Shown: positions 1-54,315 of the stretch, in pieces
Numbering within the stretch: position 1 is the first letter of the stretch
Layout of the letters: each line of letters begins with the position of its first letter
The notes under the pieces: generated by a model
The model's input: only the letters and a program-made list of their open reading frames with translations
Databases searched by the model: none
Told to the model about the DNA's origin: nothing
Made by a program: the position numbers and the translations under genes
Source of the DNA: a virus
Lineage: Duplodnaviria > Caudoviricetes
Length of the DNA: 55,574 nucleotides
IMG/VR virus record: IMGVR_UViG_3300033148_008370
Location: 1-55,574 of that record
Direction: 5' to 3' (one strand)

Positions 1-107
1 ATGCTGATGTTGTAGGAGCTATCAATGTTCTTGAGAGAGTAAGTAAGGAGGTTCCGTCCCTTAGAAAAACTTTGAATGAAAGATGTGATGAGAATGTTTT
101 TCTATAA
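1..107 (+). mobile_element. tnpB: 3' end of a second tnpB copy (truncated by window start)
   Basis: Reads ADVVGAINVLERVSKEVPSLRKTLNERCDENVFL*, nearly identical to the C-terminus of ORF 2276..3397; nt 1-120 align to 3294-3410 with one 3-nt indel. Confidence 0.9.
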
Positions 108-140
108 AAGTTTTGACGGAAAATATAATCTGTGTAGAAG
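1..140 (+). ncRNA. Putative TnpB omegaRNA copy A (scaffold to ~120, guide ~121-140)
   Basis: Identity to 3294-3410 ends abruptly at 120; stems AAAACTTT/AAAGTTTT and GAAAGATGT/ATGTTTTTC; TTCCGTC (52-58) complementary to GACGGAA (115-121). Confidence 0.7.
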
Positions 141-231
141 AATTGCTTCTCAGGATTTATTGAATGATTGGTTTAGAGATGGATGTCCATTAGACTGGAG
201 AAAGAAAAGAGGTTTTTTTTTAAAAATCTAA
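121..231 (+). pseudogene. Possible severed 3' end of a gene interrupted by tnpB copy A
   Basis: Open frame KYNLCRRIASQDLLNDWFRDGCPLDWRKKRGFFLKI* with no ATG, beginning at the inferred element end. Confidence 0.4.
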
Positions 232-242
232 TAACTGAATAA

Positions 243-1455
243 TTATTGGTCTTCACAAACTTTTATTCTATAATGCCAAGTGATTCCCCATTCAGGGTGA
301 TAACCATACAAGATTTGTTTAGCTTGAGAGATTTTTCCAAGTCTTTCAACGCTAAAGTCAAGTTAGAAATGTTCCATTTGCAATAATTGTTTTTTCATTT
401 ATATCAGTCATGAAGCAAGTATGGAAATGTCCTAAGTTAAAGATTTTAGCTTCTGGGAATATAGAACCAAAACTTTTAAATCTATCTTCTACTCCATACC
501 AAGGTGTTCTATTATACATTTTAATACCATGTCCATGATAGAGAAAGAATGGGGGATCATTCATTATAAACAATTTGTTATTATCCTCAGTAAAACATGC
601 TATTTTCCAGTCTATATTCTTATAATTCTGAAGGGATATTTTTAGTGAGTTATAAAGAATTAAATCCCAGTTTGTAACTTTATCTGAGAATTTACTATTT
701 CTTCCATGATTTCCAGGGACACATCTTATTTTTATTCTTTTAAAATGATGTGTCAGATTAGCAATAAATTTAGTGAGTGCTGGGATTAGAAGGGAATATA
801 TTTGTTTTGCTACTCCATAATTAACTTCAAATTGTTGTCCAGGGAATAGACTTTCATGATCGGCAATATCCCCAAGGAAATGAATTCTAAGAGTATTTAT
901 ATTATATGTTTTTCTTAGGATTCCATTTATTATTTTAAGCATATTTTTTTCAAGAATATCAATTCTCTTACATAATATACTTGGGTTAAAAGAAGGTGTA
1001 ATTCTTCCACCATGCAAATCAGATAATAGGAGGACTGCTGTTTCTTCTATGTTGTTGGGATTTTCTTTTGGAATATATTTTGGTGAATAATAATCTATTG
1101 GTTCTATGAGTGATTCTAATGTATCAACAATTATTTCAGTTTTTGCACTTTCTTTTCTGAGGATGTCCTCTAAACTTTTAATTCTTTTCTGATAGATTTT
1201 TATTTTTTCTTTGCTGACTGAATTTTTTAGTTTAGTATTCTCTTCTTCTAATTTTTTTAGTTTCTCTTCTATTTGTGGTGGGATTGAGTCAGTATGAGAT
1301 ATTCCTTTTTCATATACTATTTTTTTCAGATAATCTTTGTATTCTTTACATCTTCTCTGAGCTGTTCTTACTGATATGTTTATTTTCTCAGCTATTTTTT
1401 TTGTGTTACCATCATTTTCCCAGAAAATCTTTTCAAATTTTTTTATTTTGTTCAT
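243..1455 (-). CDS. Calcineurin-like metallophosphoesterase with N-terminal HTH/coiled coil; frameshift near 360
   Basis: Motifs SDLH, GD, GNHG, HGH, GHFH; track ORF stops at 358 but a shifted frame continues DFSVERLGKISQAKQILYGYHPEWGITWHYRIKVCEDQ* to 243. Confidence 0.8.
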
Positions 1456-1563
1456 TTGTCACACTCCAAAAAAGAATTTTATTATCATTTAGATGGGTTT
1501 CTTATATAATATATTAGATGACCAGTCAGTCATTAAGTTTTTATAATATAGAGAGGTGTTATA

Positions 1564-2199
1564 ATGAGCTATAAACCTAAAGATCAGAAACCTAAGAGAG
1601 GTCAAAGAACTGGTAAGGGTCATATAGATAAAGAGACAAAGAGGAGGGCTTTTGAGCTTTATGCTGTATGTCGTAATTGTGAACAAGTCGCAAGGGAATT
1701 AGGTCTTAAACCAGGCACTGTTAGAGATTGGAGAAAGAAACAACATTGGGAAGACATAATAAGAAAGCAGATGAGAGAGACAGGTTTAGTATTTGGGACA
1801 AGGAAGATGGAAGTTAAGAATACCATGCAGAGGATAATAGAGGAGAGTGAGTATGATGACTTGACTTCTACAGTAATGATTCCTTCAGCAGTGAGAGATA
1901 TAATTGATGTTCCAGCTCCTACTGAAGATGATATAATGAATTTGGCGGCTTTTAATTATTTTCTTAGTCAGTATCATATTCTGACTATAATAGAGAGGAA
2001 GCTTTCTGAATCTTTAAGAACAATGAAAGCAAAACCGGATAACTGGAATGAGATATTAAAGACAGCTGACTTTTTAAGCACTAAGTTTAGACAACTTAGG
2101 GAAGACTTAATTAAGTCAGGTTTTGCTAATAAGTTCAAGGATGAGGAGAAGGATACTCTGGAAGCTTCATATTATATTGGAGAAATTGAGGAGGATTAA
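1564..2199 (+). CDS. terS: Terminase small subunit (HTH type)
   Basis: HTH EQVARELGLKPGTVRDWRKKQHW; SD GAGG; position upstream of terL. Confidence 0.7.
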   Translation: MSYKPKDQKPKRGQRTGKGHIDKETKRRAFELYAVCRNCEQVARELGLKPGTVRDWRKKQHWEDIIRKQMRETGLVFGTRKMEVKNTMQRIIEESEYDDLTSTVMIPSAVRDIIDVPAPTEDDIMNLAAFNYFLSQYHILTIIERKLSESLRTMKAKPDNWNEILKTADFLSTKFRQLREDLIKSGFANKFKDEEKDTLEASYYIGEIEED

Positions 2200-2227
2200 A
2201 TTTGTTTAATTAATTTATAGTTTTTTG

Positions 2228-2256
2228 TTGCAATTTATATAAATTTATGCTATAAT
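2228..2256 (+). promoter_or_regulatory. Sigma70-type promoter upstream of tnpB (may read on into terL)
   Basis: TTGCAA-17 nt-TATAAT with extended TG. Confidence 0.75.
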
Positions 2257-2275
2257 AGATAACAGGTGAAGAATT

Positions 2276-3397
2276 ATGCTTAAGTCATTTAAGCTCAAAA
2301 TATATGCAAACAAGGGAAAGCTCAGGAAGTTAGACAGTCTTATTGATTTTTGGAAGAATCATGTGAATAAGAAGATAGATTTGTTTTGGGACTTTGATGA
2401 GGTCAAAGGTTCATTTCCTCCAAAGGAATATAAAAGAGGAAGTAGATTTATTAACGATTCTTCTACAAAGGCTTGGAGAATAGTAAAGGGAGTCAAGAAT
2501 AGGACAAAGAAGTTATGCTTGGATCTTCAAGAATTAGATTTTTATTCTAAGCATGGGAAAGAGCTAAGAGAGAAAATAAATAACATCTACAAGAAACCTA
2601 TTTTTAAGGGAGAAGAAGTAGATTTGAATGAAGCAACAATAAAGTTTTCTCCTCATAAGAATCACTTTGACTTTTGGGTCAGAATTTCCAACCTTATAAA
2701 AGGAAAAAGACTGAGAATTCCTTGCAAGAAGTTTGAAAGATTTAATAGATTTTTAAAGAAAGGGAAGTTGAAAAAATCAGCTAAATTGTTGAGAAGAGAT
2801 AATGGCTATTTTCTTGAGGTCTATATAGAGATACCAGAGAAAGAGTCCAATAACAAGGAGAAGATTGGCTTAGACATAGGGATGAATAACCCTGTAGCTT
2901 CTTCTGATGGAAAATTCTATGGGAAAGAACTGAAAGAATTGAGGATAAGGACTAAATGGAGAAAATATAAGAACAAAACTTCTCCTTACAAGCAAGGTCT
3001 GAATAGAATAGTGAAAGAAGTTATAAGAGATAATCCTTGCAAGGATTTTGTTGTAGAAAAGTTGTTATTTAAAGGAAAGAAAGGGAGAACAAAAAGGTTT
3101 AGGAGAAGGAATAACAATTGGAGTTATAATTTCTTTTTGAATAAGTTAGAGGAACATGGAAAAACGGAAGGTTTCGAAGTTATTCGTGTTCCAGCTTATT
3201 ATACATCTCTGAAATGCCCATCCTGTGGGCAAATCAGTAAACTGAATCGGAATGGAGATATCTTCTGTTGCATCAACTGTTCTTATAAGAATCATGCTGA
3301 TGTAGTAGGAGCTATCAATGTTCTTGAGAGAGTAGGTAAGGAGGTTTCGTCCCTTAGAAAAACTTTGAATGAAAGACATGAGAATGTCTTTCTATAA
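2276..3397 (+). CDS. tnpB: TnpB RNA-guided endonuclease (solo, IS1341-like arrangement)
   Basis: N-term MLKSFKLKIY; RuvC I GLDIG, RuvC II VVEKL, Zn ribbon CPSC...CINC, RuvC III HADVVGAIN; D/E/D intact; no tnpA adjacent. Confidence 0.93.
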   Translation: MLKSFKLKIYANKGKLRKLDSLIDFWKNHVNKKIDLFWDFDEVKGSFPPKEYKRGSRFINDSSTKAWRIVKGVKNRTKKLCLDLQELDFYSKHGKELREKINNIYKKPIFKGEEVDLNEATIKFSPHKNHFDFWVRISNLIKGKRLRIPCKKFERFNRFLKKGKLKKSAKLLRRDNGYFLEVYIEIPEKESNNKEKIGLDIGMNNPVASSDGKFYGKELKELRIRTKWRKYKNKTSPYKQGLNRIVKEVIRDNPCKDFVVEKLLFKGKKGRTKRFRRRNNNWSYNFFLNKLEEHGKTEGFEVIRVPAYYTSLKCPSCGQISKLNRNGDIFCCINCSYKNHADVVGAINVLERVGKEVSSLRKTLNERHENVFL

Positions 3398-3430
3398 GGG
3401 TTTTAACGAATGCTTAAGTGTCCAAGAAAC
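3294..3430 (+). ncRNA. Putative TnpB omegaRNA copy B (scaffold to ~3410, guide ~3411-3430; 5' limit unknown)
   Basis: Perfect hairpin GAAAGACAT-GAGA-ATGTCTTTC (3371-3392), outer stem 3359-3366/3397-3404, TTCGT (3346-3350) pairs with ACGAA (3406-3410). Confidence 0.7.
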
Positions 3431-4896
3431 AGAAAGCAACTTTATGAGTATATAAGGGACAAGTTAGGATATACAGTTCCTGATGTTGCTGTTGCTGATG
3501 GAAATATTTCTCCATTTGATTTTATTTATGATATTTTCTTTGAGAAGGTTTCAGATGTCATAGTAGTGGGTTCAAGGGGATCAGGTAAAACTCTTGATTT
3601 AGCCATTATACATATTCTTAATAGTATTTTCAAGGCAGGATGCGAGACAGTAACAGCTGGTGCTATTGAGAAACAGGCAAAGAGATGTTATAGTTATTTC
3701 CAGAAGATGCTTAAGAAGTATGCTGGGACAGGTAGAGTTGGGAATTCTTTTATATCAGAAACTATTTTTCATACTCCAGCTAAGGTAGAAATACTCACAG
3801 CTACTATGAATCAGATGAATTTCTCCCATCCTCAGAAGGCTTTTCTTGATGAATTTGATTTAGTTGAGTGGGCAATATTTATGGAATTCTTAAATATGAC
3901 ACAGAAGGATAGTAATAGTAATAGTAATATTATTGCTCAGAATGTTCTTACTACCACTTATAAGTATCCAAATGGAAGTGCTGTTAGACTTATAAGACAG
4001 AGAGAGGAAATGGGATTTGATTTTAAGGTGTGGTCTATATGGGAAGCTTCAAAGAGATGCACTTTAGATTCATGTTCTCATTGTGAAAATATTGTTAAGG
4101 GAACTTTTTCTGATGGTAGTCCAAGAACATTTGCAAGAGTATGTGGGAAGAAGTTAAAGAGATCAAATGGTTTTCTTGATATTAAGGATGTATGGAGAAG
4201 ATTTAAGAGTTTGGATATTGATATATGGCTTGCTCAGCAAGAATGCAGACGCCCTTCAAGACGGACAGCTGTGTTCTATTGGTTTGATCCAGAGAGAGAT
4301 GCTAATTTAGTTTTCAATGTAGATAGGAGTGCTAATTTCTATGAGGGTATTGACTGGGGTGGTGCATCTCCAAATGCTTATGTTTTATGGATGGAGAAGA
4401 ATGGTATTTGGTATTTAGTTGATGAGATATATGTTAAGAATATACCAGCAACTGAGTTTGCAGATATGGTAAAAGCTAAAAGAAGTAAATATGGAATAAA
4501 TAATGATAATTTGATTGCTTCTTATGCTGACCCAGAGAATACAATTGCAATGTTAGAATTTGAGAAAAAGGGTATTAATCTGACTGGTGCTAAGAAGGGA
4601 AAGGATAGTGTTATAGCTGGTGTAGCAATTATGAATTCTCTTGGAACTGATGGTAGGATTAAGATACATGCAAGGTGTAAGAATGCAAAGAGAGAATTTA
4701 CAGAATATCATTATTCACATAGCACTGTTGAAAGGAATTCTTCATCTAAGCCAGTTAAGATTCACTGTTTGATGAATATGATAATGAAGAAGAGGATAAA
4801 TTTACAGATGAATGGGATTTGTCTTTCAGGAATCTTTATGGTGTTTCTTTTCCATTCTCTGACACAACAACTATATTGAATTTGGGAGATTTTTAA
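3410..4896 (+). CDS. terL: Terminase large subunit; apparent deletion/frameshift near 4762
   Basis: Walker A GSRGSGKT, Walker B AFLDE, nuclease GIDWG and DP; -1 frame SLFDEYDNEEED...GDF* ends 1 nt before the portal ATG. Confidence 0.88.
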
Positions 4897-4897
4897 G

Positions 4898-6643
4898 ATG
4901 AGTTTTTTAGAAGATGTTGAAAGATATGAAATTTTTCTCAAGAAGAAGAAAAAAAAGACTGATGATGGAATGATGTCTTATCCAGGTGATTCTGAGATAG
5001 GATATTCTGGGCTTGATATTTCTTCTGGAATTATAAATGAGGAATACAATAGTGAGCTAAGGAGTAATTCTGATAGAGCTAATTTTTATACTCGTATGAG
5101 ATATGATGCTTCAGTTGATACAGCTTTAAATTTAGCTGAGCTACCCATTCTTGTAGCAAATTATAATATTCTTCCAACTGGTAGAGATTCTGTTGAAATG
5201 GAGTCAGCTGAATTCTTGAGAGATATTATATATAATAGGTCAAATATTACAACTACTTATTCATATAGAGATACACTTAAAGAAGAATGCAAGTTTATGC
5301 AATATGGATTTTTTCCATATGAGAAGGTATATGATAGAAGGGATTGGAATGGAGAGAATTTTAGTAGGAAGAATATGATAGTTCTCAAGAAACTGGCACT
5401 GAGGCATCCAAAATCTGTTGATAGATGGAAATATAAACCTGATGGAAGCTTAGAAGGAATGTATCAGGTTCCTTCTACAAATATAGATAGTTTAGGAAGT
5501 GATGAGATATTCATTCCTGTAGAGAAGCTACTTATTTTGGTGCATAATAGGATTGGGAATAATTTTGAGGGTATTTCGATTCTTCGTCCTTTAGTGAAAC
5601 ATTGGAGCTATAAGAATGGTCTTTATAAGATAGAAGCTTTAGGGCTTCAGAAGAATGCTATGGGTATTCCATCATTGGGGATGTCGAAACCTAATAGTGA
5701 GAAGCTCAATAAAGCAAAGAAGATGCTTCGTTCTTTAATGGTCCATGAAGAAGCAGGTATTATTTATGATAGGGACAAACAAACATTTGATTATAAGCAA
5801 GGGGGAATTCATACAGTTGCTATTCACAGGAGTATTTCTCATCATGATAGTAAGATATATCAGAATGTTCTTGCTGGATTTATGCTTTTGGGGCAAGAGT
5901 CAAGAGGAGGGGCAAGGAATCTTGGTGGTTCTTTGATGGATTTCTATCTTATGATGTCTCAGAATATTGTTGATTTAAGATGTGATATAAGGAATCGTTA
6001 TTTATTGCAACCTCTTGTATCTTATAATTATTCTAACATAAAGAGATTTCCAAAAGAGGTAGGAAACCTTAACAGTATGAAAGATAAGGTTGCTCTTTCT
6101 AATATTCTTAAGACTCTTGCTGATTCAAATTATATAGATCCATCAGAATTATCTATGAGGGAATATGTTCATAGTCTTTATGGATTTCCAGAACCAAAGA
6201 AATTAAGTGATGAAGCACAAAAGAAAGCAGTTACAGAGACAGATAAAGATGCTTCTGAGAATAAGAAAGAACCAGCAAATAAAGCTGAGATGTCCTTGCT
6301 CAAATGGCTTGGGAGAATAAAACCATTAGATAACTTGCCTGTGGATTATAGAGAGAGATGGATAAAAGCATCAAGAAAAATTGAAGAATTGCAAAGGAAA
6401 GAAATATCTGAGTCAGTTTCAGAATTAGTAAAGATGGGTCAAGTCCCAAATATAAATTATATAGATGTTCCATATAATGATCATTTGAGAAAGCTGATGA
6501 GGGAATATGTTAATTTTCATTCTGAGCTTTCTAAGGATGATAGTTACAGTGATTTTGTGGTTGAGTCAGCTATTCATACTCATAATAATGAAATGAAGTG
6601 GGAGATTCTGGATACTTTGCTCAATATTTCAAGAAAATTATAG
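4898..6643 (+). CDS. Portal protein (DUF935/Mu gp29-like)
   Basis: Follows terL; YGFFPYEKVY, GNNFEGISILRP, GGARNLG segments typical of this family. Confidence 0.85.
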   Translation: MSFLEDVERYEIFLKKKKKKTDDGMMSYPGDSEIGYSGLDISSGIINEEYNSELRSNSDRANFYTRMRYDASVDTALNLAELPILVANYNILPTGRDSVEMESAEFLRDIIYNRSNITTTYSYRDTLKEECKFMQYGFFPYEKVYDRRDWNGENFSRKNMIVLKKLALRHPKSVDRWKYKPDGSLEGMYQVPSTNIDSLGSDEIFIPVEKLLILVHNRIGNNFEGISILRPLVKHWSYKNGLYKIEALGLQKNAMGIPSLGMSKPNSEKLNKAKKMLRSLMVHEEAGIIYDRDKQTFDYKQGGIHTVAIHRSISHHDSKIYQNVLAGFMLLGQESRGGARNLGGSLMDFYLMMSQNIVDLRCDIRNRYLLQPLVSYNYSNIKRFPKEVGNLNSMKDKVALSNILKTLADSNYIDPSELSMREYVHSLYGFPEPKKLSDEAQKKAVTETDKDASENKKEPANKAEMSLLKWLGRIKPLDNLPVDYRERWIKASRKIEELQRKEISESVSELVKMGQVPNINYIDVPYNDHLRKLMREYVNFHSELSKDDSYSDFVVESAIHTHNNEMKWEILDTLLNISRKL

Positions 6644-30808: not shown

Positions 30809-31492
30809 TTGGTGATGATTCAGAATTCAGGAGGAATTCCAAATAATTTCTCAGCTACATCAGCACCTACTGTTAATGATGATGTAGATGATGGTTATCT
30901 TGTAGGTTCTCATTGGTATGATACTACTAATGATAAGATATACACATGTATAGATAATTCATCTGGTTCTGCTATTTGGAAGAGTTTGGGTCTTGGTGAT
31001 ACAGGTCTTGAACTTATTGATTCTTATACTGTTACAGGGTCAGCTGTGTCAGAGATTGCATTTAGTGGTATATCAGGTAATGATTATTCAGAGATGATTT
31101 TACTTGTATGGTTATATAATCCTGATTCAAGTGCAAGGACATATTCGCTTATATTTCAAGATGATTATTCTGTTTCACATTACTATGAAATGTATTACTA
31201 TCATGTTTATGGTAATAATCCTACTTATGGTTCAGCTAATAGTGCTGATTTTCAACAATTAGAAGCAGGAGAATATGGGTTTGTTGTATTCTATGGGATT
31301 AGTAGGAGTGCAGATAATAGAATAAGATATTTCAAGGATGGACTTAGAAATTATGGAAGTAATATGGTTAGAGAGGGAGGGACAAGAACTTATACAGAGA
31401 CGGTAACAGAGATTACTGATATTACTATTTATCAAAGTGGTAATTACATTGGTGTAGGAAGCAAAGTTTTGCTGTATGGGAGAAAGGTGTGA
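30809..31492 (+). CDS. Short tail fibre/receptor-binding protein A
   Basis: PTVNDD..GYLVGSHWYD anchor plus beta-sandwich head ending VLLYG. Confidence 0.65.
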   Translation: MVMIQNSGGIPNNFSATSAPTVNDDVDDGYLVGSHWYDTTNDKIYTCIDNSSGSAIWKSLGLGDTGLELIDSYTVTGSAVSEIAFSGISGNDYSEMILLVWLYNPDSSARTYSLIFQDDYSVSHYYEMYYYHVYGNNPTYGSANSADFQQLEAGEYGFVVFYGISRSADNRIRYFKDGLRNYGSNMVREGGTRTYTETVTEITDITIYQSGNYIGVGSKVLLYGRKV

Positions 31493-31914
31493 TCAGTCAT
31501 GAAATGTAAAGATTGCAAATACGAACAAGTGAGCAAGCATGTTTGGGTGTTAAGAGAGCGTTGTTCTAAATGCCAAGCTATTGCTGATTTATTAGAAGAA
31601 GAAGCAATTGCTGAATATGAGAGAAGAGAAAGGAAGAGAAAGATACAAGAGAGGATTCATAAAAATGCTTATGAACAAGCAGAGGCAGAGCTTATAAATG
31701 AAGGTGTAATTTCACAGAGAAAATAGGAGGTCTGGTAATGGCGGTTAATATTCAAAATTCAGGAGGAATTCCAAATAATTTCTCAGCTACATTAGCACCT
31801 ACTGTTAATGATGATGTGGATGATGGTTATCTTGTAGGTTCTCATTGGTATGATACCACCAATAATAAAATATACACATGTATAGATAATTCATCTGGTT
31901 CTGCTATTTGGAAG
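30818..31914 (+). repeat. 165-bp direct repeat pair (30818-30982 and 31750-31914)
   Basis: 7 mismatches by manual alignment, all transitions. Confidence 0.92.
31499..31726 (+). CDS. Small CxxC-CxxC protein, possible fibre chaperone
   Basis: CKDC...CSKC; lies between the two fibre genes. Confidence 0.5.
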   Translation: MKCKDCKYEQVSKHVWVLRERCSKCQAIADLLEEEAIAEYERRERKRKIQERIHKNAYEQAEAELINEGVISQRK

Positions 31915-32458: not shown

Positions 32459-32815
32459 ATGATGAATGAAACACAGCTTATAGCAATAATTTCAACATTA
32501 GTTTCTTGTATGACAGTAGCTTTTACTAAACTGATTGATTTTGTTATTTCTTATTTTAAGCAAAATCATACTGAAGAACAAGCTACTTTAGAGAGGAGAG
32601 CTATTACTGAACTTGTGCAGAAGAATGTTTATGTAATAGACACAGTTGCTGATAGACTTGAGAATCTCGATGATGATCATTCTGAACTCAGGAGCCTTAT
32701 TCTGGAAGTTCAGAGAGATAATCTTGAAGTTATCAAACTTTTGAATAAGTCTGAAGTTAATATTGATTATATGAAGGAAAGAATTGACAAGGTGATGTAT
32801 AATGAAGAGGATTAG
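32459..32815 (+). CDS. Single-TM coiled-coil protein, possible holin
   Basis: Hydrophobic N-terminus then coiled coil. Confidence 0.5.
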   Translation: MMNETQLIAIISTLVSCMTVAFTKLIDFVISYFKQNHTEEQATLERRAITELVQKNVYVIDTVADRLENLDDDHSELRSLILEVQRDNLEVIKLLNKSEVNIDYMKERIDKVMYNEED

Positions 32816-32957
32816 AAAGAAAAAATATGATTTTGTTTCTCTTGTCTATGAACCTTCTGATACTATAATATCTATAGTCAGAAAGGGAATAGAAGAGATA
32901 GACAAGAAGCTTGAGAAGATCAGAAAGAATGGAAAGACTGTTGAAAAGGAGAAGTAA
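32802..32957 (+). CDS. 51-aa basic hypothetical protein (not in track)
   Basis: SD AAGGTG; MKRIRKKKYDFVSLVYEPS...EKEK*; fills the gap. Confidence 0.5.
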   Translation: MKRIRKKKYDFVSLVYEPSDTIISIVRKGIEEIDKKLEKIRKNGKTVEKEK

Positions 32958-32960
32958 TTT

Positions 32961-35138
32961 GTGTCTTTTCTTAAGAGAAATTTGAATGATTTTGTAGATG
33001 TATTCACTGCTTATATTGATTCAGACCAGACAGATGTTCCAAATGGTTATTATAATCTTCTTTTAATGGGTGGAGGTAAAAGGAGGAAGGTTCCAGTTTT
33101 ACCTGATTCAATGAATAATAACTATGTAGAGGGAGATGCTGTTCTTGTAGGTAGATTAAATAGGAATGATCAAACTCCTTTTATTATTGGTTATGCATCT
33201 AATATAAGTAAATATACAGTTCCTGAAGAACCTTCTACTGGAGGTAGATTATTACCATTGCAGAATTTTTATGGTAATATGGGAATGACAAGATGGCTTC
33301 CTGGTGCTACAAAGGATATAACACCTCTTGGATTTTCTTCAGAAGTGGCATATTTATTTTCAGCAGGTGAAATACCAGGATTATCTGATGAAGGATTTAT
33401 GTACACAAATAAAAGAAGATACAGCTTCACAGATAATGGTTCTGTGTTAGATATTCATGAAGATGTTGCAACCCCGAATATAGAAGCATCTGGTAAATAT
33501 CCTGTATTTGATCAATTATTTTATGGTCCAGTTTGTGTGCATACTTGTCCAATATTGTTTTATAGAACTCCATTTGTTGATGATGGAAAAGTTTATTGGG
33601 CAGAATATGATCCTATTTCAGGAATTTCTGATTATTATGAACTAAATTATTCTCGTGATACAGCTATTAATGTATTTACAGCTGATCCATCAGATACTCC
33701 AGTTGGTAAAACATTAAGTCTTGGAGGACAATATAATGCAGGACAATGGATTAGAACCTTTTTAGCAACTCCCTGTTCATCCGCGGATTCGGATGGTCCA
33801 TACAGTATCTGTCATTATTCTCCTGATAATTCTCCAGGTACAAAAATGCAGCTCTCTACTTTTCCTTCTAAAAGATATTCTGTTTTTTCTCAATATATTA
33901 CATATACTGGAAATATATTCAGTCTGAACTTTGGAACTTCTGATTATTATAGATGGTGTGACCCTACTCCTCCAGTTGTTTATTATCCTCATTTTCATGA
34001 TGAATATAATTCTCTATGGAAATATTATGATACAAGTGTGCAGAGAACATTTTCATGGAATGGCACTGTTGATTATTTCTCTACAATTAGATCACCTTTT
34101 GTAAAGCTTTGGTATGAATGGGAGTATTTTGGGCTCAAAAATGGAGTTTATGACTATTACTTTGAAGATTTTGATTCAGTAGGGAGTGGTAAGTCTGATT
34201 ATCCTTATTCAGTTACTTCTCATGTTGGAGTAAATCAAGATGGTCTTGGACCATATAACTGCCATAGTATTTTGCCCAATCAACAGTCTTATATTTTTAT
34301 TCATAGTAAAGTTTATGAAACAAGTAATGGTTTGATAACAAAATTGTCTCTTGGAAGCTTTTATTTTGTATCATATGGCTGGGATGGAAATTATGTTTAT
34401 GATCTTCACAAAGTGGATATTAATCCATCCAGTGAAAGCAATTACTGTTTTTTAAACAATGATGGAGAAATTATTTCTAATGATTCTCATATAAGAATGA
34501 ATGGTTTTGATATGCCAAACTTTTTTGGAAATGATAGTATTTGGTGGAGTAATGGAAAATATGCAATTGGTTCAGAACCTAAAGATTGGATAGATTGGCC
34601 AGCACCTCCACCTGACATAAGCCATGTTTCAGCTCATTCTTTGGTGTCTTATGTTGCTGGTGGCAGATATACCCGAAATGCTTGTTCGAATGATACATAC
34701 ATGGTATTATTTGATGAAACAACAAGAATGAAGTGGGTAGTACTTGATAAGGAGTTTAATAATGTTTATGAGGGGGAAATTACTAATTCTCTGTGGCCAC
34801 CTGTATGGTTCTATTCTTTTGGGGATGATAATGGTACAGGTTTTATAACTGATGATAATTATTATTATACTACATTCTTTGGCTGGTATGATGCTCCTAT
34901 AAACAAATATATTAAAGGTATCATTGGAATAGATCTGATGACCAGCACTATGATATATTGGTATATATATATATGGGATTATAATCAATTTGTTGCAAAT
35001 GGTTATGATCCAGCTGATATTGAAGATTATCAAAATTATATATTCTTTTATGGAGGTTATATTGCCATTTGTATATGGAATGCTTATCAGCACCCTACTA
35101 ACTGGCGGTGGATTTTGATAAAAGCGAAAGATTCTTAG
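32961..35138 (+). CDS. Large aromatic-rich tail tip/receptor-binding protein
   Basis: 725 aa, Tyr/Trp/Ser-rich, OB-like N-terminus; SD AAGGAG with GTG start. Confidence 0.55.
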   Translation: MSFLKRNLNDFVDVFTAYIDSDQTDVPNGYYNLLLMGGGKRRKVPVLPDSMNNNYVEGDAVLVGRLNRNDQTPFIIGYASNISKYTVPEEPSTGGRLLPLQNFYGNMGMTRWLPGATKDITPLGFSSEVAYLFSAGEIPGLSDEGFMYTNKRRYSFTDNGSVLDIHEDVATPNIEASGKYPVFDQLFYGPVCVHTCPILFYRTPFVDDGKVYWAEYDPISGISDYYELNYSRDTAINVFTADPSDTPVGKTLSLGGQYNAGQWIRTFLATPCSSADSDGPYSICHYSPDNSPGTKMQLSTFPSKRYSVFSQYITYTGNIFSLNFGTSDYYRWCDPTPPVVYYPHFHDEYNSLWKYYDTSVQRTFSWNGTVDYFSTIRSPFVKLWYEWEYFGLKNGVYDYYFEDFDSVGSGKSDYPYSVTSHVGVNQDGLGPYNCHSILPNQQSYIFIHSKVYETSNGLITKLSLGSFYFVSYGWDGNYVYDLHKVDINPSSESNYCFLNNDGEIISNDSHIRMNGFDMPNFFGNDSIWWSNGKYAIGSEPKDWIDWPAPPPDISHVSAHSLVSYVAGGRYTRNACSNDTYMVLFDETTRMKWVVLDKEFNNVYEGEITNSLWPPVWFYSFGDDNGTGFITDDNYYYTTFFGWYDAPINKYIKGIIGIDLMTSTMIYWYIYIWDYNQFVANGYDPADIEDYQNYIFFYGGYIAICIWNAYQHPTNWRWILIKAKDS

Positions 35139-37393: not shown

Positions 37394-38035
37394 ATGAAAG
37401 AAGAAGATTGTATTGAACAGTTAGTCAGGAAGAACACAAAGTATGTTTGGAAGATGGCTTATTCTCTGGCGAATGGAATAAATGATCCATCTAAGAGTCC
37501 AGAGGATTATTACCAAGAAATCATGATAAGATTATATCAAGGAAGAAAGAATATTGATGAAAGCAGAGACCCTGCTCAGATAGAAGGTTATATCAGAAGG
37601 ATTATACAAAATGCTGGCAGAGGTCTTTTTCATTTTTATAAGAGAAGAGATTTCACTATCCCAGTTGGTGATTTTTTTTCAGAGGATACTCATACAAAAT
37701 TCTATGTATTAGATGATAAACATGATCCAGTAAGAACTGTGCTTAAAAGGATGATAGAGAGGAATAAGGACAATAAAGAAGATTTGAAGTTTTTGATTAG
37801 AGTAATAAAGATATCTCTGATAATGCCAAAAGGATTTGTGAAATATATTGTAGATGGTTATAGCATTTTAAAATCTCTTTCTCTGTATATGAAAATTCCA
37901 TGTAGTGAAGTAAGTAGAAGACTCAGGAGAATAAGGATGAGGGTGAGTGAAGGAGAAATTAGTGATGCTGAGAACAGAAGAATTTACAGATATTTAAATG
38001 AGGAAGAGACAAAAATTCGAGATTTTAATAGATAA
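37394..38035 (+). CDS. Sigma-70/ECF-like factor
   Basis: Region-2-like VWKMAY...PEDYYQEIMIRLY...YIRRIIQN; C-terminal HTH-like segment. Confidence 0.6.
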   Translation: MKEEDCIEQLVRKNTKYVWKMAYSLANGINDPSKSPEDYYQEIMIRLYQGRKNIDESRDPAQIEGYIRRIIQNAGRGLFHFYKRRDFTIPVGDFFSEDTHTKFYVLDDKHDPVRTVLKRMIERNKDNKEDLKFLIRVIKISLIMPKGFVKYIVDGYSILKSLSLYMKIPCSEVSRRLRRIRMRVSEGEISDAENRRIYRYLNEEETKIRDFNR

Positions 38036-38043
38036 TTTTTACT

Positions 38044-38130
38044 CTCATACAATTATAAGCCCATAGACATACATCATTTTATTTCTATGACCTAAGATAC
38101 ATCTTACACTCTAAACTGTGTTCTATGAGC
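38044..38130. repeat. 87-bp element, inverted partner of 53999-54085
   Basis: 76/87 identical ungapped to the reverse complement of 53999-54085 (manual count). Confidence 0.92.
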
Positions 38131-51189: not shown

Positions 51190-54006
51190 ATGATGAAAAA
51201 GAGCTTTCTGGTGTTTTCAGATTTACATGTGAAAAATGATAACTTGGATGAATGTATTTCTGTTTTGAATCAGATTGAAGAATGTTCTTCAGAGAATGAT
51301 ACTGACAAGATATTCTTTCTTGGTGATTTATATGAGAAGAAGAGATATGTAGATTTAAATATTTTCAATAGGGTATATTCTGAGCTTTATAAATTATCCG
51401 AATGCTGTAATAGATTATACTTAATGGTTGGAAATCATGATAGGTCATTAGAGAATAGCGAACACTGTATGTCAAGCATGTTTCCGTTTTCAGAAATAAT
51501 CTCTGATTTTAGTATCATATATGATAAAGATAATAAGATAGAATTTCATTGTGTGCCTTATTTGACTGGAGGATTGATGAAGTCAGGTTTTAAGGTAGAA
51601 CCAACACATAGAGATTATAGACAAATATTATTTTTTCATGGGAGTTATAGTGGTTTGAGAATTAATAATCATAGTCTTTCATCTGATTTTACAAAAGAGG
51701 AGATGAATTTACATTTCTATGACTTAGTCATGGGAGGGCATATCCACAAGAGAATGCAGTTTGATAAGAATGCTCTTTATGTTGGTTCACCTCTTCATAA
51801 AGATTTTTCTGACTGTGGAGAGGATAAGGGATTTTACACTGTGGATTATGAGACTTTAACTCCTATTTTTCACAAGTTAGAATATCCAGAATTCATTAAG
51901 ATAGTTACAAAGAGAGACATAAAGGAATACAGAGATAAACTTAGGAATAGTCATATTTGGTTATTTCTTGATGGTGATGAAATCCATAATAAGCTTAAGA
52001 AAATTGCAAAGTCAGTTAGATATACTCCTATAATTGAAGAGAGGGAGAAGGAGGAATATAATGATATTCTCAATATTGAATTAGCTTTGGTATCATATTT
52101 GAAGGAGAAGAATGAAGATGTAGAGAAAAGGTTGTTTCAGTATAAGGATAGATGGGGTAAATTCTCTTCAGTTCATAAAGATGTTAAGATAGGAATGTTG
52201 AGAGCCAAGAATTTTCTTTCATATAAGGATTTGGAGTGGGATTTCAGTATTCTTACTGATTCACCCATAGGTATATTTGGTAAGAATGGGGCAGGAAAAT
52301 CTTCTTTTGTAGAATCTATAGTATGGGGTATATATGGTTCTACTATAAGAAATGCTTCAGCTGACAGTGTTGTTAATAGGAAATTCAAAAATAATTGCCA
52401 TGTTAATATTGTTTTTCAGAGTGGTAGTAAGAATATAGAGATTAACAGATATAGAAAACATGAAAAGGAGAAGAATAATTTAAACATAAGTGAGGGTAAA
52501 GGTTCAGAAAAGAGATTGACTCAGATCTATATAAATAATTTGTTATGTCCTTTATCTCATTTTAAGACTTTGATTACTATGGGAAGTGGTTCAGTTCCAA
52601 TTATGAGACTTAAACCATCTGATAGAAAGTCTGTTATAGAAAATGTAATAGGGATGAACTGGATAGAGGAAGAATATAAAAGTATAAAGAAGGAGCTGAG
52701 CAAGAGGGAACAAGAATACATGAAGATAAGTATGGGTTTGGAGAATGTCAAGGATAGATACCAAGATTTACAAAATGAATTATTAAAAGTAGATGAATTA
52801 TGTAAACAAGCTGAAGATGAGAAGAGAGAGAAGAGAGAAGAAATAGAGAGAAGAATAGATGAGATAGGTATTATAGCTTCTAATATGCATTCTAAGTTAG
52901 TTGAAAGAGAGAAGATAGTAAATAGTATAGAAGAGAAACTATTGCTTAATTCTAAGGTGATTTCTGAAATTACAGAGAAGAAGGATAATTCATTGAGAAT
53001 GATTGAGAAGGAGAGAATCCAGTTAAGAAATGAAATTAGACAAATGGAAAGTGAGATAAGGAAGTGGAAGAAGAAAATTAAGAATGATAACTCTGAAGTT
53101 TCAGTCTGTGATTTCTGTTTATCCAAATATAATCCTAAAGATGTTAATAGGAAAATAGAGAAGATAATATCAGAGAAGGAAGATGAATTAAAGAGAGTAA
53201 AGAATATAATAAAGAAGAAAGATGAGGAAGCTGATAAAATCAGAGTAAAATATTCTGAAAGACATGAAATGTATGTTAAGGAGAGAGAAATTCTTGAGAA
53301 AGAACTTTCTAATGTTGGGATCACAGAACTCAAGATGAAAATAGAAAGACTGTTGGGTGAGAGAGATCAGTTGGAGAGAGAACTGAATTCTATTGAGTCT
53401 GAAAATAAATGGAAAAAGTATTATAATGAACTAAGAGATAAAATTTCAAGTCTTGAGGAAGAGATGAGAATGTCAGAAAAGGAAGAAAGAAATTGTAAGA
53501 GAAAGCTGGATTACTGTAAATTCTGGAAGGAAGCATTCAGTCTTTCAGGCTTCAGGAAAAATCTTATAAGAATTGTTCTCCCATTCTTAGAAAGAAAAAT
53601 CAATAATTACCTTTCTCAATGGAACCTGAAATGTAAAATAACTATGAAAGGAAAAAGAGAAGATATAAATATATCTCTTATAGAAGAAAATAAGAATGTA
53701 GAATATAGTCTGTATTCTGGTGGAGAGAGAAATAGAATTGACTGTGCAATTCTGTTTTCGCTTTACGAAATTGCTTCCATGTTGACCATGAAAATAAATG
53801 TGCTGATTTTAGATGAAGTTCTCACTGGTCTGGACGAGGAAGGTGCTTCAGATGTGTATAAGATGACAAAAGATTTCATGAATAGAATAAAAATACAAGT
53901 CTATATGATTACTCATAATGTTCACATGCAATCTCTGTTTGAGAAGTATATTAGAGTAAAGAATGAAAAAGATTTTTCCCAGATTTACCCAGTAATTAGC
54001 TCATAG
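51190..54006 (+). CDS. SbcD-SbcC (Mre11-Rad50-like) fusion
   Basis: SDLH, GD, GNHD, GHIH; then NFLSY, GKNGAGKS, hook CDFC, SGGE, LDE, TH. Confidence 0.9.
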   Translation: MMKKSFLVFSDLHVKNDNLDECISVLNQIEECSSENDTDKIFFLGDLYEKKRYVDLNIFNRVYSELYKLSECCNRLYLMVGNHDRSLENSEHCMSSMFPFSEIISDFSIIYDKDNKIEFHCVPYLTGGLMKSGFKVEPTHRDYRQILFFHGSYSGLRINNHSLSSDFTKEEMNLHFYDLVMGGHIHKRMQFDKNALYVGSPLHKDFSDCGEDKGFYTVDYETLTPIFHKLEYPEFIKIVTKRDIKEYRDKLRNSHIWLFLDGDEIHNKLKKIAKSVRYTPIIEEREKEEYNDILNIELALVSYLKEKNEDVEKRLFQYKDRWGKFSSVHKDVKIGMLRAKNFLSYKDLEWDFSILTDSPIGIFGKNGAGKSSFVESIVWGIYGSTIRNASADSVVNRKFKNNCHVNIVFQSGSKNIEINRYRKHEKEKNNLNISEGKGSEKRLTQIYINNLLCPLSHFKTLITMGSGSVPIMRLKPSDRKSVIENVIGMNWIEEEYKSIKKELSKREQEYMKISMGLENVKDRYQDLQNELLKVDELCKQAEDEKREKREEIERRIDEIGIIASNMHSKLVEREKIVNSIEEKLLLNSKVISEITEKKDNSLRMIEKERIQLRNEIRQMESEIRKWKKKIKNDNSEVSVCDFCLSKYNPKDVNRKIEKIISEKEDELKRVKNIIKKKDEEADKIRVKYSERHEMYVKEREILEKELSNVGITELKMKIERLLGERDQLERELNSIESENKWKKYYNELRDKISSLEEEMRMSEKEERNCKRKLDYCKFWKEAFSLSGFRKNLIRIVLPFLERKINNYLSQWNLKCKITMKGKREDINISLIEENKNVEYSLYSGGERNRIDCAILFSLYEIASMLTMKINVLILDEVLTGLDEEGASDVYKMTKDFMNRIKIQVYMITHNVHMQSLFEKYIRVKNEKDFSQIYPVISS

Positions 54007-54085
54007 AACACAGTTTACATAGTAAGATGTATTCTGTATCATAAAAATAAAATGATGTGTGTCTATGGGCTTATAATTGTGTGAG
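53999..54085. repeat. 87-bp element, inverted partner of 38044-38130
   Basis: See 38044; overlaps the sbcDC stop codon. Confidence 0.92.
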
Positions 54086-54096
54086 GAGTGATAATA

Positions 54097-54315
54097 ATGA
54101 AGAAAACAATATACATTATTCCCGAAGAATGTTATGACAATGGCAGTGATATGTTCAAGGATAAAGTTGATGTTCTTTCAGTTGATGGGAAGATTATTAT
54201 GATCCCTTTTAATGGAACTGAGGAAGAATGCATTAGTTTTGTGAGAGGGAAGCTGAATGATGATGTGCTTGATTATATTGATAAGAATTTTCATTTTGAG
54301 GTGACATATAAATGA
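54097..54315 (+). CDS. Hypothetical protein
   Basis: SD GAGGAG before ATG 54097. Confidence 0.6.
   Translation: MKKTIYIIPEECYDNGSDMFKDKVDVLSVDGKIIMIPFNGTEEECISFVRGKLNDDVLDYIDKNFHFEVTYK

What the first reader, a model, noticed from the sequence alone, without database searches (positions are those of the whole stretch)
2190..3430. TnpB wedged precisely between terS and terL, guided against the terL start: candidate phage-versus-phage homing weapon
Seen: removing 2201-3410 gives GAGGAGGAT-TAA-ATG-CTT-AAG, a tight terS stop/terL start junction with a strong SD. The element's last base supplies the A of the terL ATG. TnpB catalytic residues are intact and no tnpA is adjacent. Known: TnpB cuts TAM plus right-flank (empty donor) sites. 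Inference: TAM about TTAAA, guide TGCTTAAGTGTCCAAG, so the target is the packaging-gene junction of insertion-free relatives; the phage's own RecA/UvsY/SbcCD could complete homing. The left boundary is inferred and alternatives a few nt away exist.
Basis: partly seen in the sequence, partly recalled or inferred. Interest (0 to 1): 0.8.

Follow-up and report, generated by a model that had tools for sequence, protein, structure and literature searches.

The report
Guide-RNA nuclease element before phage terL
A small selfish DNA element that encodes an RNA-guided nuclease sits exactly where a phage's two DNA-packaging genes meet, its guide matches the start of the second gene, and sister copies come and go between near-identical phages, so it may spread by cutting phage genomes that lack it.

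Summary
The TnpB gene at 2276-3397 between terS and terL is real. Its catalytic D-E-D triad and zinc finger are intact, and the fold matches Cas12f and TnpB. The 55.6-kb window holds no transposase.

It belongs to a compact clade whose distant members carry an IS607-type serine recombinase, so it is IS607 lineage, not IS200/605.

The right end is now fixed. A conserved guide-RNA scaffold with covariation ends at 3409, so the guide starts at 3410, the A of the terL ATG. That base is flank, not element.

Two sister insertion sites have readable empty sites: copy A (window 1-119, absent from a 99.5% relative) and a third copy seen in run X1 (empty in the window at 32952). Both abut purine-rich, ribosome-binding-site-like motifs. 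This favours a left boundary at about 2194/2195.

No relative lacking the terS-terL insertion was found; all three related genomes carry it. Homing is therefore plausible, given the polymorphic sister copies and the phage's RecA and SbcCD-like genes, but it is unproven at this site.

This is a new member of a known kind in an interesting setting.

The parts
1564..2199 (+). terS-like small terminase gene. Its last codons (GAG GAG GAT TAA) hold the purine-rich motif and, under the favoured boundary, take the end of the last codon and the stop from the element.
   Evidence: Weak Pfam Terminase_5 and HTH hits. PHROG small terminase at 4e-5. Position directly upstream of terL and portal.
2195..2275 (+). 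Left end of the element. The first base is uncertain within 2194-2201. It holds a cluster of AATTTAT motifs, a 14-nt palindrome, a promoter-like TTGCAA-17-TATAAT (2228-2256) and the tnpB ribosome-binding site.
   Evidence: 4 of the window's 25 AATTTAT matches lie in 2212-2248. Palindrome 2232-2245 (I21). Promoter-like site (16 sites in the region against 8.7 expected, so weak). The boundary is inferred from sister empty sites and from left-end starts in relatives.
2276..3397 (+). tnpB, a compact RNA-guided nuclease of 373 aa.
   Evidence: invariant D200, E261, D342 and CxxC...CxxC. AlphaFold model with pLDDT 88.5. Foldseek: AsCas12f 1.6e-16, ISFba1 TnpB 5.9e-13, ISDra2 TnpB 2.3e-11.
3338..3409 (+). 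Guide-RNA (omega RNA) scaffold core and right end. It has hairpin 3338-3341/3352-3355, long stem 3359-3364/3399-3404 enclosing hairpin 3372-3391, and a pseudoknot 3347-3350 with 3406-3409.
   Evidence: Folds. RNAalifold found 8 of 12 pairs with compensatory changes. Named structure: 90.3% of cells paired against 76.3% in shuffles, 0 of 500 shuffles as high; slid controls 35-55%. Covariance model hits 3298-3409 and 5-119 only (both were in the training set).
3410..3429 (+). Predicted guide, equal to the first 16-20 nt of terL (ATGCTTAAGTGTCCAAGAAA).
   Evidence: It follows the scaffold terminus. It is unique in the window at up to 3 mismatches.
3410..4879 (+). terL. In this window it is truncated by a 67-nt deletion at 4760; the relative L003 encodes 517 aa.
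   Evidence: PHROG large terminase at 2.4e-24. Alignment A2..
1..119 (+). Copy A: the right end of a second, diverged copy (90.7% identical to 3294-3408). The contig starts inside it.
120..139 (+). Guide and right flank of copy A. The same sequence lies uninterrupted inside a 159-aa ORF of the 99.5% relative L003, which is the empty site ...ctgaagg|aaaatataat.
32940..32975 (+). Empty site of a third copy (C), seen occupied in run X1. The sequence is ...gaaaaggag|aagtaatttGTG. It lies between the AAGGAG ribosome-binding site and the GTG start of ORF 32961-35138, one codon before the stop of ORF 32802-32957.
   Evidence: Loose end at 3408. It maps at 32952-32975 with 2 mismatches in 24, 0 expected..

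Best explanation
A transposase-less, IS607-lineage TnpB and guide-RNA element of about 1.2 kb (about 2195-3409) is inserted at the terS/terL junction.

Shown:
- An intact TnpB/Cas12f-fold nuclease gene.
- A conserved structured RNA at its 3' end that stops at 3409.
- A flank that begins with the terL start codon.
- Sister copies at two other loci that are present in one phage and absent in a near-identical one.

Inferred:
- The tnpB transcript is processed into a guide RNA whose 16-20-nt guide is ATGCTTAAGTGTCCAA...
- The ribonucleoprotein cuts DNA in which this sequence follows a purine-rich motif (about GGAGG; compare GAAGG and AGGAG at the sister sites). That is a terS-terL junction without the element.
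- The occupied genome is protected because the right end (...AACGA) replaces the motif.
- During co-infection, or after loss of the element, the break is repaired from an occupied genome by phage or host recombination (RecA-like and SbcCD-like genes are present). This copies the element in, which is non-restorative homing or gene drive, and penalises element-free genomes.
- New sites were probably seeded by an IS607 serine recombinase supplied in trans.
For: Protein:
- Pfam TNB domain.
- 65 homologues; the triad and zinc finger are invariant in 58 of them.
- Confident model matching Cas12f, TnpB and Fanzor structures.

IS607 lineage:
- L062 has a Resolvase plus MerR-HTH gene overlapping the tnpB start.
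- tblastn with it finds 5 of 85 family loci (L062-64 full length, L077 partial, L080 remnant).

Guide RNA:
- Covariation.
- The terminal pair is C-G in 11 sequences and U-A in 3. Copy B is one of the U-A cases, so its ACGA terminus is compensated.

Right end:
- Three independent junctions of this subfamily diverge right after ACG[G/A].
- I placed the terminus ACG followed by G (22 loci), A (3) or T (1, L048) by eye in 25 of 42 family loci.

Mobility:
- Copy A is present in the window and absent from L003 at 99.5% identity.
- Copy C is occupied in X1 and empty in the window.
- In a related subfamily the element sits at different places in related phages.

GG rule:
- In passages of 10.1101/2023.11.20.567912, IS607 TnpA needs a GG core and the motif is TGGG.
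- Here the site A flank ends GG and the right end ends GG.
- In one subfamily 5 of 5 independent left flanks end ATGG.

Recombination genes.
Against: - No element-free terS-terL junction was found, so the guide has no known natural target. The insertion looks fixed in 3 of 3 related genomes.
- No RNA data exist, and no cleavage has been shown.
- The motif is inferred from only two empty sites, which differ (GAAGG against AGGAG).
- Site C's core reads AG in the window but GG at the X1 junction.
- Copy B's right end ends GA, not GG.
- Under the favoured boundary the rebuilt junction leaves no spacer between GGAGG and ATG.
- L007, left out of the covariation alignment, would be a C-A mismatch in the terminal pair.
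- Other family members sit next to cellular genes (trigger factor, GatB), so the clade is not phage-specific.
Confidence: 0.6

Rival explanations
1. The element spans 2201-3410, the motif is TTAAA, the empty site is GAGGAGGATTAA|ATGCTT, and the element donates the A of the start codon.
For: The reconstruction gives a stop-start abutment with a 5-nt spacer after GGAGG. The same TAAATG geometry occurs in 2 of 44 TerL relatives examined, L132 and L133. A3409/A3410 and A2199/A2200 allow an AA 'core' reading.
Against: The right end finishes at 3409 by covariation and by the family-wide terminus. Neither sister empty site has an AT-rich motif; both have purine runs directly abutting the flank. Where defined, family left flanks end in G or GG. 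In 27 of 44 relatives the upstream gene overlaps the terL start, so the ideal spacer is not required. The favoured reconstruction's ATGnnnTAA overlap also occurs, in L122 and L157.
Confidence: 0.2
2. A stranded passenger. The element arrived once by an IS607 transposase in trans and is now fixed. It cannot leave without a transposase, and deletion would disturb the terS stop and terL expression. It has no current targets, and its nuclease does nothing useful or selfish at this site.
For: All 3 related genomes carry it. No transposase is present. Only 1 difference within 2195-3409 separates the window from L003. Under the favoured boundary the element supplies the end of the last terS codon and the terS stop, and its right end carries AAGGG 9 nt before the terL ATG where copy A has AAAAG.
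Against: The ORF, the catalytic residues and the guide-RNA pairing, including a compensated terminal pair, are all intact. Sister copies are polymorphic between near-identical phages, so the subfamily has moved recently.
Confidence: 0.3
3. A domesticated exclusion or regulation device. The phage keeps the nuclease mainly to destroy superinfecting relatives, or uses partial guide matches for regulation. The first 10 guide bases equal the first 10 bases of tnpB itself.
For: The 10-nt identity ATGCTTAAGT at 2276 and 3410. The target lies in an essential packaging gene. The review PMC13565253 (passages) notes that homing endonucleases can kill competitors when conversion fails.
Against: There is no functional evidence. 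The bases before 2276 (GAATT) do not resemble the inferred motif. The RuvC triad is intact, unlike the nuclease-dead TldR regulators. The same element type also interrupts an ORF (site A), which is selfish rather than adaptive behaviour.
Confidence: 0.12

Closest known systems
IS607-family TnpB and guide-RNA elements (CboIStron; 10.1101/2023.11.20.567912, passages read)
   Same: A RuvC nuclease with its guide RNA encoded at the right end, with a 3' pseudoknot. The guide is the flank. There is no target duplication. A GG core dinucleotide occurs at the right terminus and at the target (site A). Short 6-7-bp motifs lie in the end. Distant clade members carry the serine recombinase.
   Different: No transposase and no group I intron here. 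The protein is compact (373 aa) and only its TNB domain is seen by Pfam. The inferred motif is purine-rich (GAAGG, AGGAG) rather than TGGG. Copy B's right end ends GA. The host replicon is a phage.
ISDra2 / IS200-IS605 TnpB
   Same: The same fold (8h1j at 2.3e-11, 8exa at 5e-8) and the same logic of motif plus flank-derived guide.
   Different: No Y1 transposase. By sequence, canonical TnpBs with PF12323 and PF01385 are only E about 1e-11 relatives. The relatives' transposase is a serine recombinase.
Cas12f (AsCas12f, OsCas12f)
   Same: The best structural matches (8j3r at 1.6e-16, TM 0.61) and the best PDB sequence match (9nzq at 4.7e-9).
   Different: No CRISPR array nearby. The guide is the transposon flank.
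Free-standing homing endonuclease genes of T-even phages (Seg and Mob; as described in PMC13565253, passages)
   Same: A gene wedged between conserved phage genes, present or absent among close relatives, and expected to act during co-infection with co-conversion of flanks.
   Different: Recognition here would be RNA-guided. Self and non-self are told apart by presence or absence of the element, not by sequence substitutions.
TnpA-independent spread of IS605 in plasmid populations (PMC11870625, only the search listing seen; the review's own sentence on it)
   Same: Non-restorative homing of a TnpB element among co-resident replicon copies.
   Different: That case is plasmids and IS605. The review calls the phage case theoretical.
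TldR, phage-encoded nuclease-dead TnpB regulators (listings)
   Same: A phage-borne TnpB relative with a guide RNA.
   Different: The RuvC triad is intact here.

Membership tests
TnpB (OMEGA RNA-guided nuclease) | Split RuvC catalytic triad D-E-D | tested here: met
   D200, E261 and D342 are invariant in 17 and 58 homologues.
TnpB (OMEGA RNA-guided nuclease) | Zinc-finger / TNB domain inserted in RuvC | tested here: met
   PF07282 at 1.2e-14. C314, C317, C332 and C335 are invariant.
TnpB (OMEGA RNA-guided nuclease) | Overall TnpB/Cas12f fold | tested here: met
   Model pLDDT 88.5, pTM 0.75. Foldseek hits to Cas12f, ISFba1 TnpB, ISDra2 TnpB and Fanzor2 at 1e-16 to 1e-8.
TnpB (OMEGA RNA-guided nuclease) | Structured guide RNA overlapping the 3' end of the gene and ending at the element boundary | tested here: met
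   Covariation on 15 sequences and three right-end junctions. That the RNA is made was not testable; no RNA run was listed.
TnpB (OMEGA RNA-guided nuclease) | Guide- and motif-dependent DNA cleavage | not testable with these tools
   Needs motif-library and interference assays.
IS607 family | Serine-recombinase TnpA in the element | tested here: not met
   No PF00239 match in the window. It is present next to distant clade members L062-L064. The window element is a transposase-less derivative of this lineage at most.
IS607 family | The same core dinucleotide (GG) at the target and at the right terminus, with no target duplication | tested here: inconclusive
   Site A: target ...GG and right end ...GG. 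Site C: window AG against X1 GG. Copy B: right end GA, with GG at 2193-2194. No flanking duplication was seen.
IS607 family | Short repeated 6-7-bp motifs in the ends, and no terminal inverted repeats | tested here: inconclusive
   AATTTAT occurs 4 times in 2212-2248, but not in the right end. The function of these motifs is unknown.
IS200/IS605 family | Y1 (HUH) TnpA | tested here: not met
   No PF01797 match in the window. The only transposase found beside a clade member was L062's serine recombinase, by a targeted tblastn with it; Y1 TnpA was not searched for in the family loci.
CRISPR-Cas12f | Adjacent CRISPR array | tested here: not met
   No repeat array in 1400-4200 or in the window self-BLAST.
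Phage free-standing homing endonuclease gene (functional class) | Presence/absence polymorphism between close relatives, with an intact target in the empty genome | tested here: inconclusive
   Met for sister copies A and C. Not met for the terS-terL copy, which 3 of 3 relatives carry.

The most novel reading that the evidence does not exclude
A compact IS607-derived TnpB and guide-RNA element runs an RNA-guided gene drive among co-infecting phages without its own transposase. Its target motif resembles a ribosome-binding site, so it lands just upstream of gene starts. Three sites in one phage lineage are known: terL, a 725-aa gene, and one inside an ORF. Its guides therefore cover start-codon regions, where escape mutations are costly. 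Natural occupied and empty pairs for two sites already exist in near-identical genomes. This would be the first natural phage example of what a 2026 review still calls theoretical.
Probability: 0.3. Interest if true: 0.8.

Novelty: new member of a known kind. Interest (0 to 1): 0.5.

Why it matters
TnpB elements are known to preserve themselves by cutting vacated sites, and to spread among plasmid copies. Whether they drive through phage populations during co-infection, as protein homing endonucleases do, was found only as a theoretical possibility in the papers I searched.

This lineage offers a concrete test bed:
- an intact nuclease of 373 aa;
- a defined guide-RNA terminus;
- three defined targets, two of them with natural empty alleles;
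- phage recombination genes.

The clade is also structurally nearer Cas12f than canonical TnpB. Its apparent purine-rich motif could interest people who mine small editors.

Tried and rejected
Searches that found nothing new:
- blastn of 1500-5000 against the phage collection: no match.
- Single-protein locus searches for TerL, TnpB and TerS in viral contigs: only the same 10.4-kb relative.
- Right-end 26-mer scan: viral contigs gave only that relative, metagenomes gave 0.
- Site C flank pattern and a left-end 20-mer in viral contigs: 0, and the same relative only.
- As a result, the left junctions of copies A and C could not be recovered.
- Rfam: no family above noise and no group I intron.
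- The covariance model found no further copy in the window.
- Sequencing runs: no RNA holder listed.
- Only part of the loose-end and piece tables was shown. No contig bridging an empty terS-terL junction appeared in the rows shown.

Readings rejected:
- The 10-nt repeat ATGCTTAAGT (2276 and 3410) as a target duplication, or the insert starting at the tnpB ATG. The M-L/I-K-S N-terminus is native to the family in other contexts, and upstream sequence resembles that of relatives.
- The MAFFT alignment of the left end with L029 was unconvincing, so I do not rely on it.

Inconclusive:
- TerL relatives are too distant (at most 41% and 31%) to read the empty junction. Junction geometry in 44 of them fits both reconstructions.
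- The promoter-like site in the left end is weak evidence: 16 sites in the region against 8.7 expected.

Supplementary files and figures of the papers were not seen. Figure S5 and the tables of 10.1101/2023.11.20.567912 may bear on IS607 boundary rules.
Full report
WHAT IS THERE

The window is a linear IMG/VR virus record estimated at about 50% complete.
- ORF 1564-2199 is a small-terminase-like HTH protein. Its Pfam and PHROG hits are weak but consistent.
- ORF 3410-4879 is the large terminase (PHROG 2.4e-24 on the full-length form from the relative).
- ORF 4898-6643 is a Mu-type portal.
- Between terS and terL lies ORF 2276-3397, 373 aa.

This ORF carries the Cas12f1-like TNB domain (1.2e-14) and hits PHROG 'transposase' families. 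It has 65 homologues of about 340-400 aa in the large protein collection. Almost all have only PF07282 recognised. Canonical TnpBs with PF12323 and PF01385 appear only at E about 1e-11 or weaker.

D200, E261, D342 and the CxxC...CxxC zinc finger are invariant in 58 aligned homologues. An AlphaFold model built on that alignment is confident (pLDDT 88.5, pTM 0.75). Its best PDB matches are Cas12f (8j3r at 1.6e-16, TM 0.61), ISFba1 TnpB (8iaz at 5.9e-13), ISDra2 TnpB (8h1j at 2.3e-11) and Fanzor2.

The window has no resolvase-type or Y1 transposase, no CRISPR array near the gene and no Rfam family such as a group I intron.

WHICH FAMILY

Locus searches with the family alignment gave 10 viral loci, 3 genome loci and 72 metagenome loci. 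Some of these are the same contig in two collections.

In the most distant branch (37-43% identity), L062 has an upstream gene that overlaps the tnpB start and encodes Resolvase plus a MerR HTH. That is the IS607 serine transposase. A tblastn with it hits 5 of 85 family loci: L062-64 full length, L077 partial, L080 a remnant. The closer relatives, like the window, lack it.

The lineage is thus IS607, not IS200/IS605. Contexts are mixed. L013 sits between phage portal and protease genes, but L007 and L049 sit next to trigger factor and GatB. The clade is not phage-only.

RIGHT END AND GUIDE RNA

The window begins inside a second, diverged copy of the element. Bases 1-118 are 90.7% identical to 3294-3408. 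The two copies diverge after GTTTTGACGG (base 119) and GTTTTAACGA (base 3409).

Contigs of run X1 gave a third junction, whose match ends at 3408 and continues with a different flank.

Across the family the right end finishes ...(GG)AACGG or ...ACGA, 5-34 nt after the stop codon, and flanks then diverge. I could place this terminus by eye in 25 of the 42 loci printed. A strict pattern found it in 5 of 14 others and not in 9.

For the covariation test I used 15 of the 21 sequences in alignment A3. I left out L007 and the five distant sequences L018, L059, L060, L062 and L063.
- RNAalifold found 12 pairs, 8 of them with compensatory changes.
- I then named a structure: a hairpin, a long stem that closes 5 nt before the terminus, and a pseudoknot between the hairpin loop (YCGU) and the terminal ACGR.
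- For this structure 90.3% of cells pair, against 76.3% in shuffles (0 of 500 as high).
- The covariation score is 0.474 against 0.218 (0 of 500). Slid controls give 35-55%.
- The very last pair is C-G in 11 sequences and U-A in 3 (the terS-terL copy, L029 and L028), and is never unpaired.
- L007, which I left out, would be a C-A mismatch there.

This layout, a first stem-loop pseudoknotted to the scaffold 3' end, is what the IS607 IStron paper describes for guide RNAs (passages).

The scaffold therefore ends at 3409 and the guide begins at 3410, the A of the terL ATG. The guide is ATGCTTAAGTGTCCAA..., unique in the window.

LEFT END AND TARGET MOTIF

No second full copy is available, so the left boundary is inferred.

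Two sister sites have readable empty alleles.
- Site A. The 99.5%-identical contig L003 lacks copy A. It carries ...ctctgaagg|aaaatataatctg uninterrupted inside a 159-aa ORF.
- Site C. The X1 flank maps to window 32952-32975 with 2 mismatches in 24 and none expected. The window reads ...gaaaaggag|aagtaatttGTG there. This lies between a ribosome-binding site and the GTG start of ORF 32961-35138, and one codon before the stop of a 51-aa ORF.

In both sites a purine-rich run (GAAGG, AGGAG) directly abuts the right flank.

In the IS607 IStron, TnpA requires a GG core and TnpB a TGGG motif, with no target duplication. In one subfamily here, 5 of 5 independent left flanks end ATGG before a conserved left-end start. 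In other subfamilies the flanks end GG, AG or GT, less cleanly.

At the terS-terL copy the only such motif I saw in the candidate left-boundary stretch is GAGGAGG (2188-2194). The sequence after it (GATTAAA) resembles left-end starts in L029 and in that subfamily (GATAAAG, GATAACA). The whole-region alignment is poor, however.

I therefore favour a left boundary at about 2194/2195.

Under my boundary:
- The rebuilt junction is ...GAGGAGG|ATGCTTAAG.
- terS would then end ...EEDA, using the TAA inside terL codons 2-3.
- The element now supplies the end of the last terS codon (GAT) and the terS stop codon.

That is tidier for translation.

Among 44 TerL relatives (at most 31% identical), the upstream gene overlaps the terL start in 27 and lies 0-7 nt away in 4. 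My crude ORF rule gave larger gaps in the other 13. Both geometries occur, ATGnnnTAA in L122 and L157 and TAAATG in L132 and L133. Geometry does not decide the question.

The stretch 2212-2248 holds 4 of the window's 25 AATTTAT motifs and a 14-nt palindrome. This recalls the short motifs needed in IS607 ends. A promoter-like TTGCAA-17-TATAAT lies at 2228-2256, but such matches are common here.

IS IT A HOMING WEAPON?

For the terS-terL copy I found no element-free relative.
- L003 carries the insertion, with one difference inside the element.
- X1 contigs about 91% identical bridge terS into tnpB (821-2293) and the right end into terL (3381-3723).
- The next TerL relatives are 41% identical or less.

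At this site the guide therefore has no known natural target, and the claim is untested.

What supports the mechanism in general:
- The nuclease and guide RNA are intact.
- Sister copies A and C are present in one genome and absent in another near-identical one, and the empty allele carries a perfect guide match (site A).
- In a related subfamily the element occupies different positions in related phages.
- The phage encodes RecA-like, SbcC-like and SbcD-like proteins. UvsY was not tested.

New sites cannot arise by homing alone. They imply a serine transposase acting in trans at some time.

On the literature:
- A 2026 review lists 'transposon non-restorative homing' into co-infected phages as theoretical. 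It cites TnpA-independent spread of IS605 among plasmids (passages).
- My three other searches turned up no phage example.

VERDICT

- The guide assignment is right to within one base.
- The motif and left boundary are probably wrong by 5-6 nt.
- The family is IS607-type.
- The weapon idea is reasonable but unproven here.

It is a new member of a known kind of element in a setting that makes a long-discussed idea testable.

Noticed in passing
window 4760 (terL 3' part); L003 7352-7417: The window lacks 67 nt that the 99.5% relative has, and run X1 also has a longer form. The deletion shifts the frame and removes the conserved ...KKDDHxxD nuclease motif, so the window's TerL (489 aa against 517) looks defective. 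This may be a defective genome or an assembly error.
   Followed up: partly
window 2276-2285 and 3410-3419: The first 10 bases of tnpB and of terL are identical (ATGCTTAAGT), so the guide's first 10 bases also match the element's own start. Given two ATGs, the chance of this is roughly 1e-3 to 1e-4. It is not a target duplication, because the N-terminus is native to the family. It remains unexplained.
   Followed up: partly
window 2353/3287 (run X1): An X1 contig joins 2353 to 3287, skipping 933 nt at a 10-nt repeat, AAGAATCATG. It could be an internally deleted, guide-RNA-only derivative of the element. The shorter side is only 30 nt, so this is a lead only (D11).
   Followed up: no
window 219-238 against L003 2346-2824: The relative has 479 nt, including a 133-aa ORF, where the window has 20 nt. 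The region consists of small genes preceded by repeated modules of about 110 nt, and looks hypervariable.
   Followed up: no
window 3396-3400 against 106-110: The right end of the terS-terL copy reads AAGGG 9 nt before the terL ATG, where copy A reads AAAAG. The changes keep the guide-RNA stem through G-U pairs. They may give terL a replacement ribosome-binding site.
   Followed up: no
window TnpB residues about 78-100: There is an insertion of about 23 aa that is absent from all 16 aligned homologues. It is modelled as a helix extension with lower confidence, pLDDT 73-75.
   Followed up: no
window 30818-30982 / 31750-31914, and 38032-38130 / 53999-54098: A 165-nt direct repeat (95.8% identical) and an inverted repeat of about 100 nt (86-88% identical) lie elsewhere in the window.
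   Followed up: no
P0068 (TerL relative): The 39%-identical TerL relative carries an intein (PF14890) inserted after the ...GT motif. It is another selfish element in the same gene family.
   Followed up: no
L013 5001-6200: A family member (40% identical) sits between the portal and prohead-protease genes of another phage contig.
   Followed up: no
L009 against L021, right flank: Two 98%-identical elements share at least 485 nt of left flank but diverge 7 nt after the stop, immediately after the right end. This suggests rearrangement at the guide-adjacent flank.
   Followed up: no
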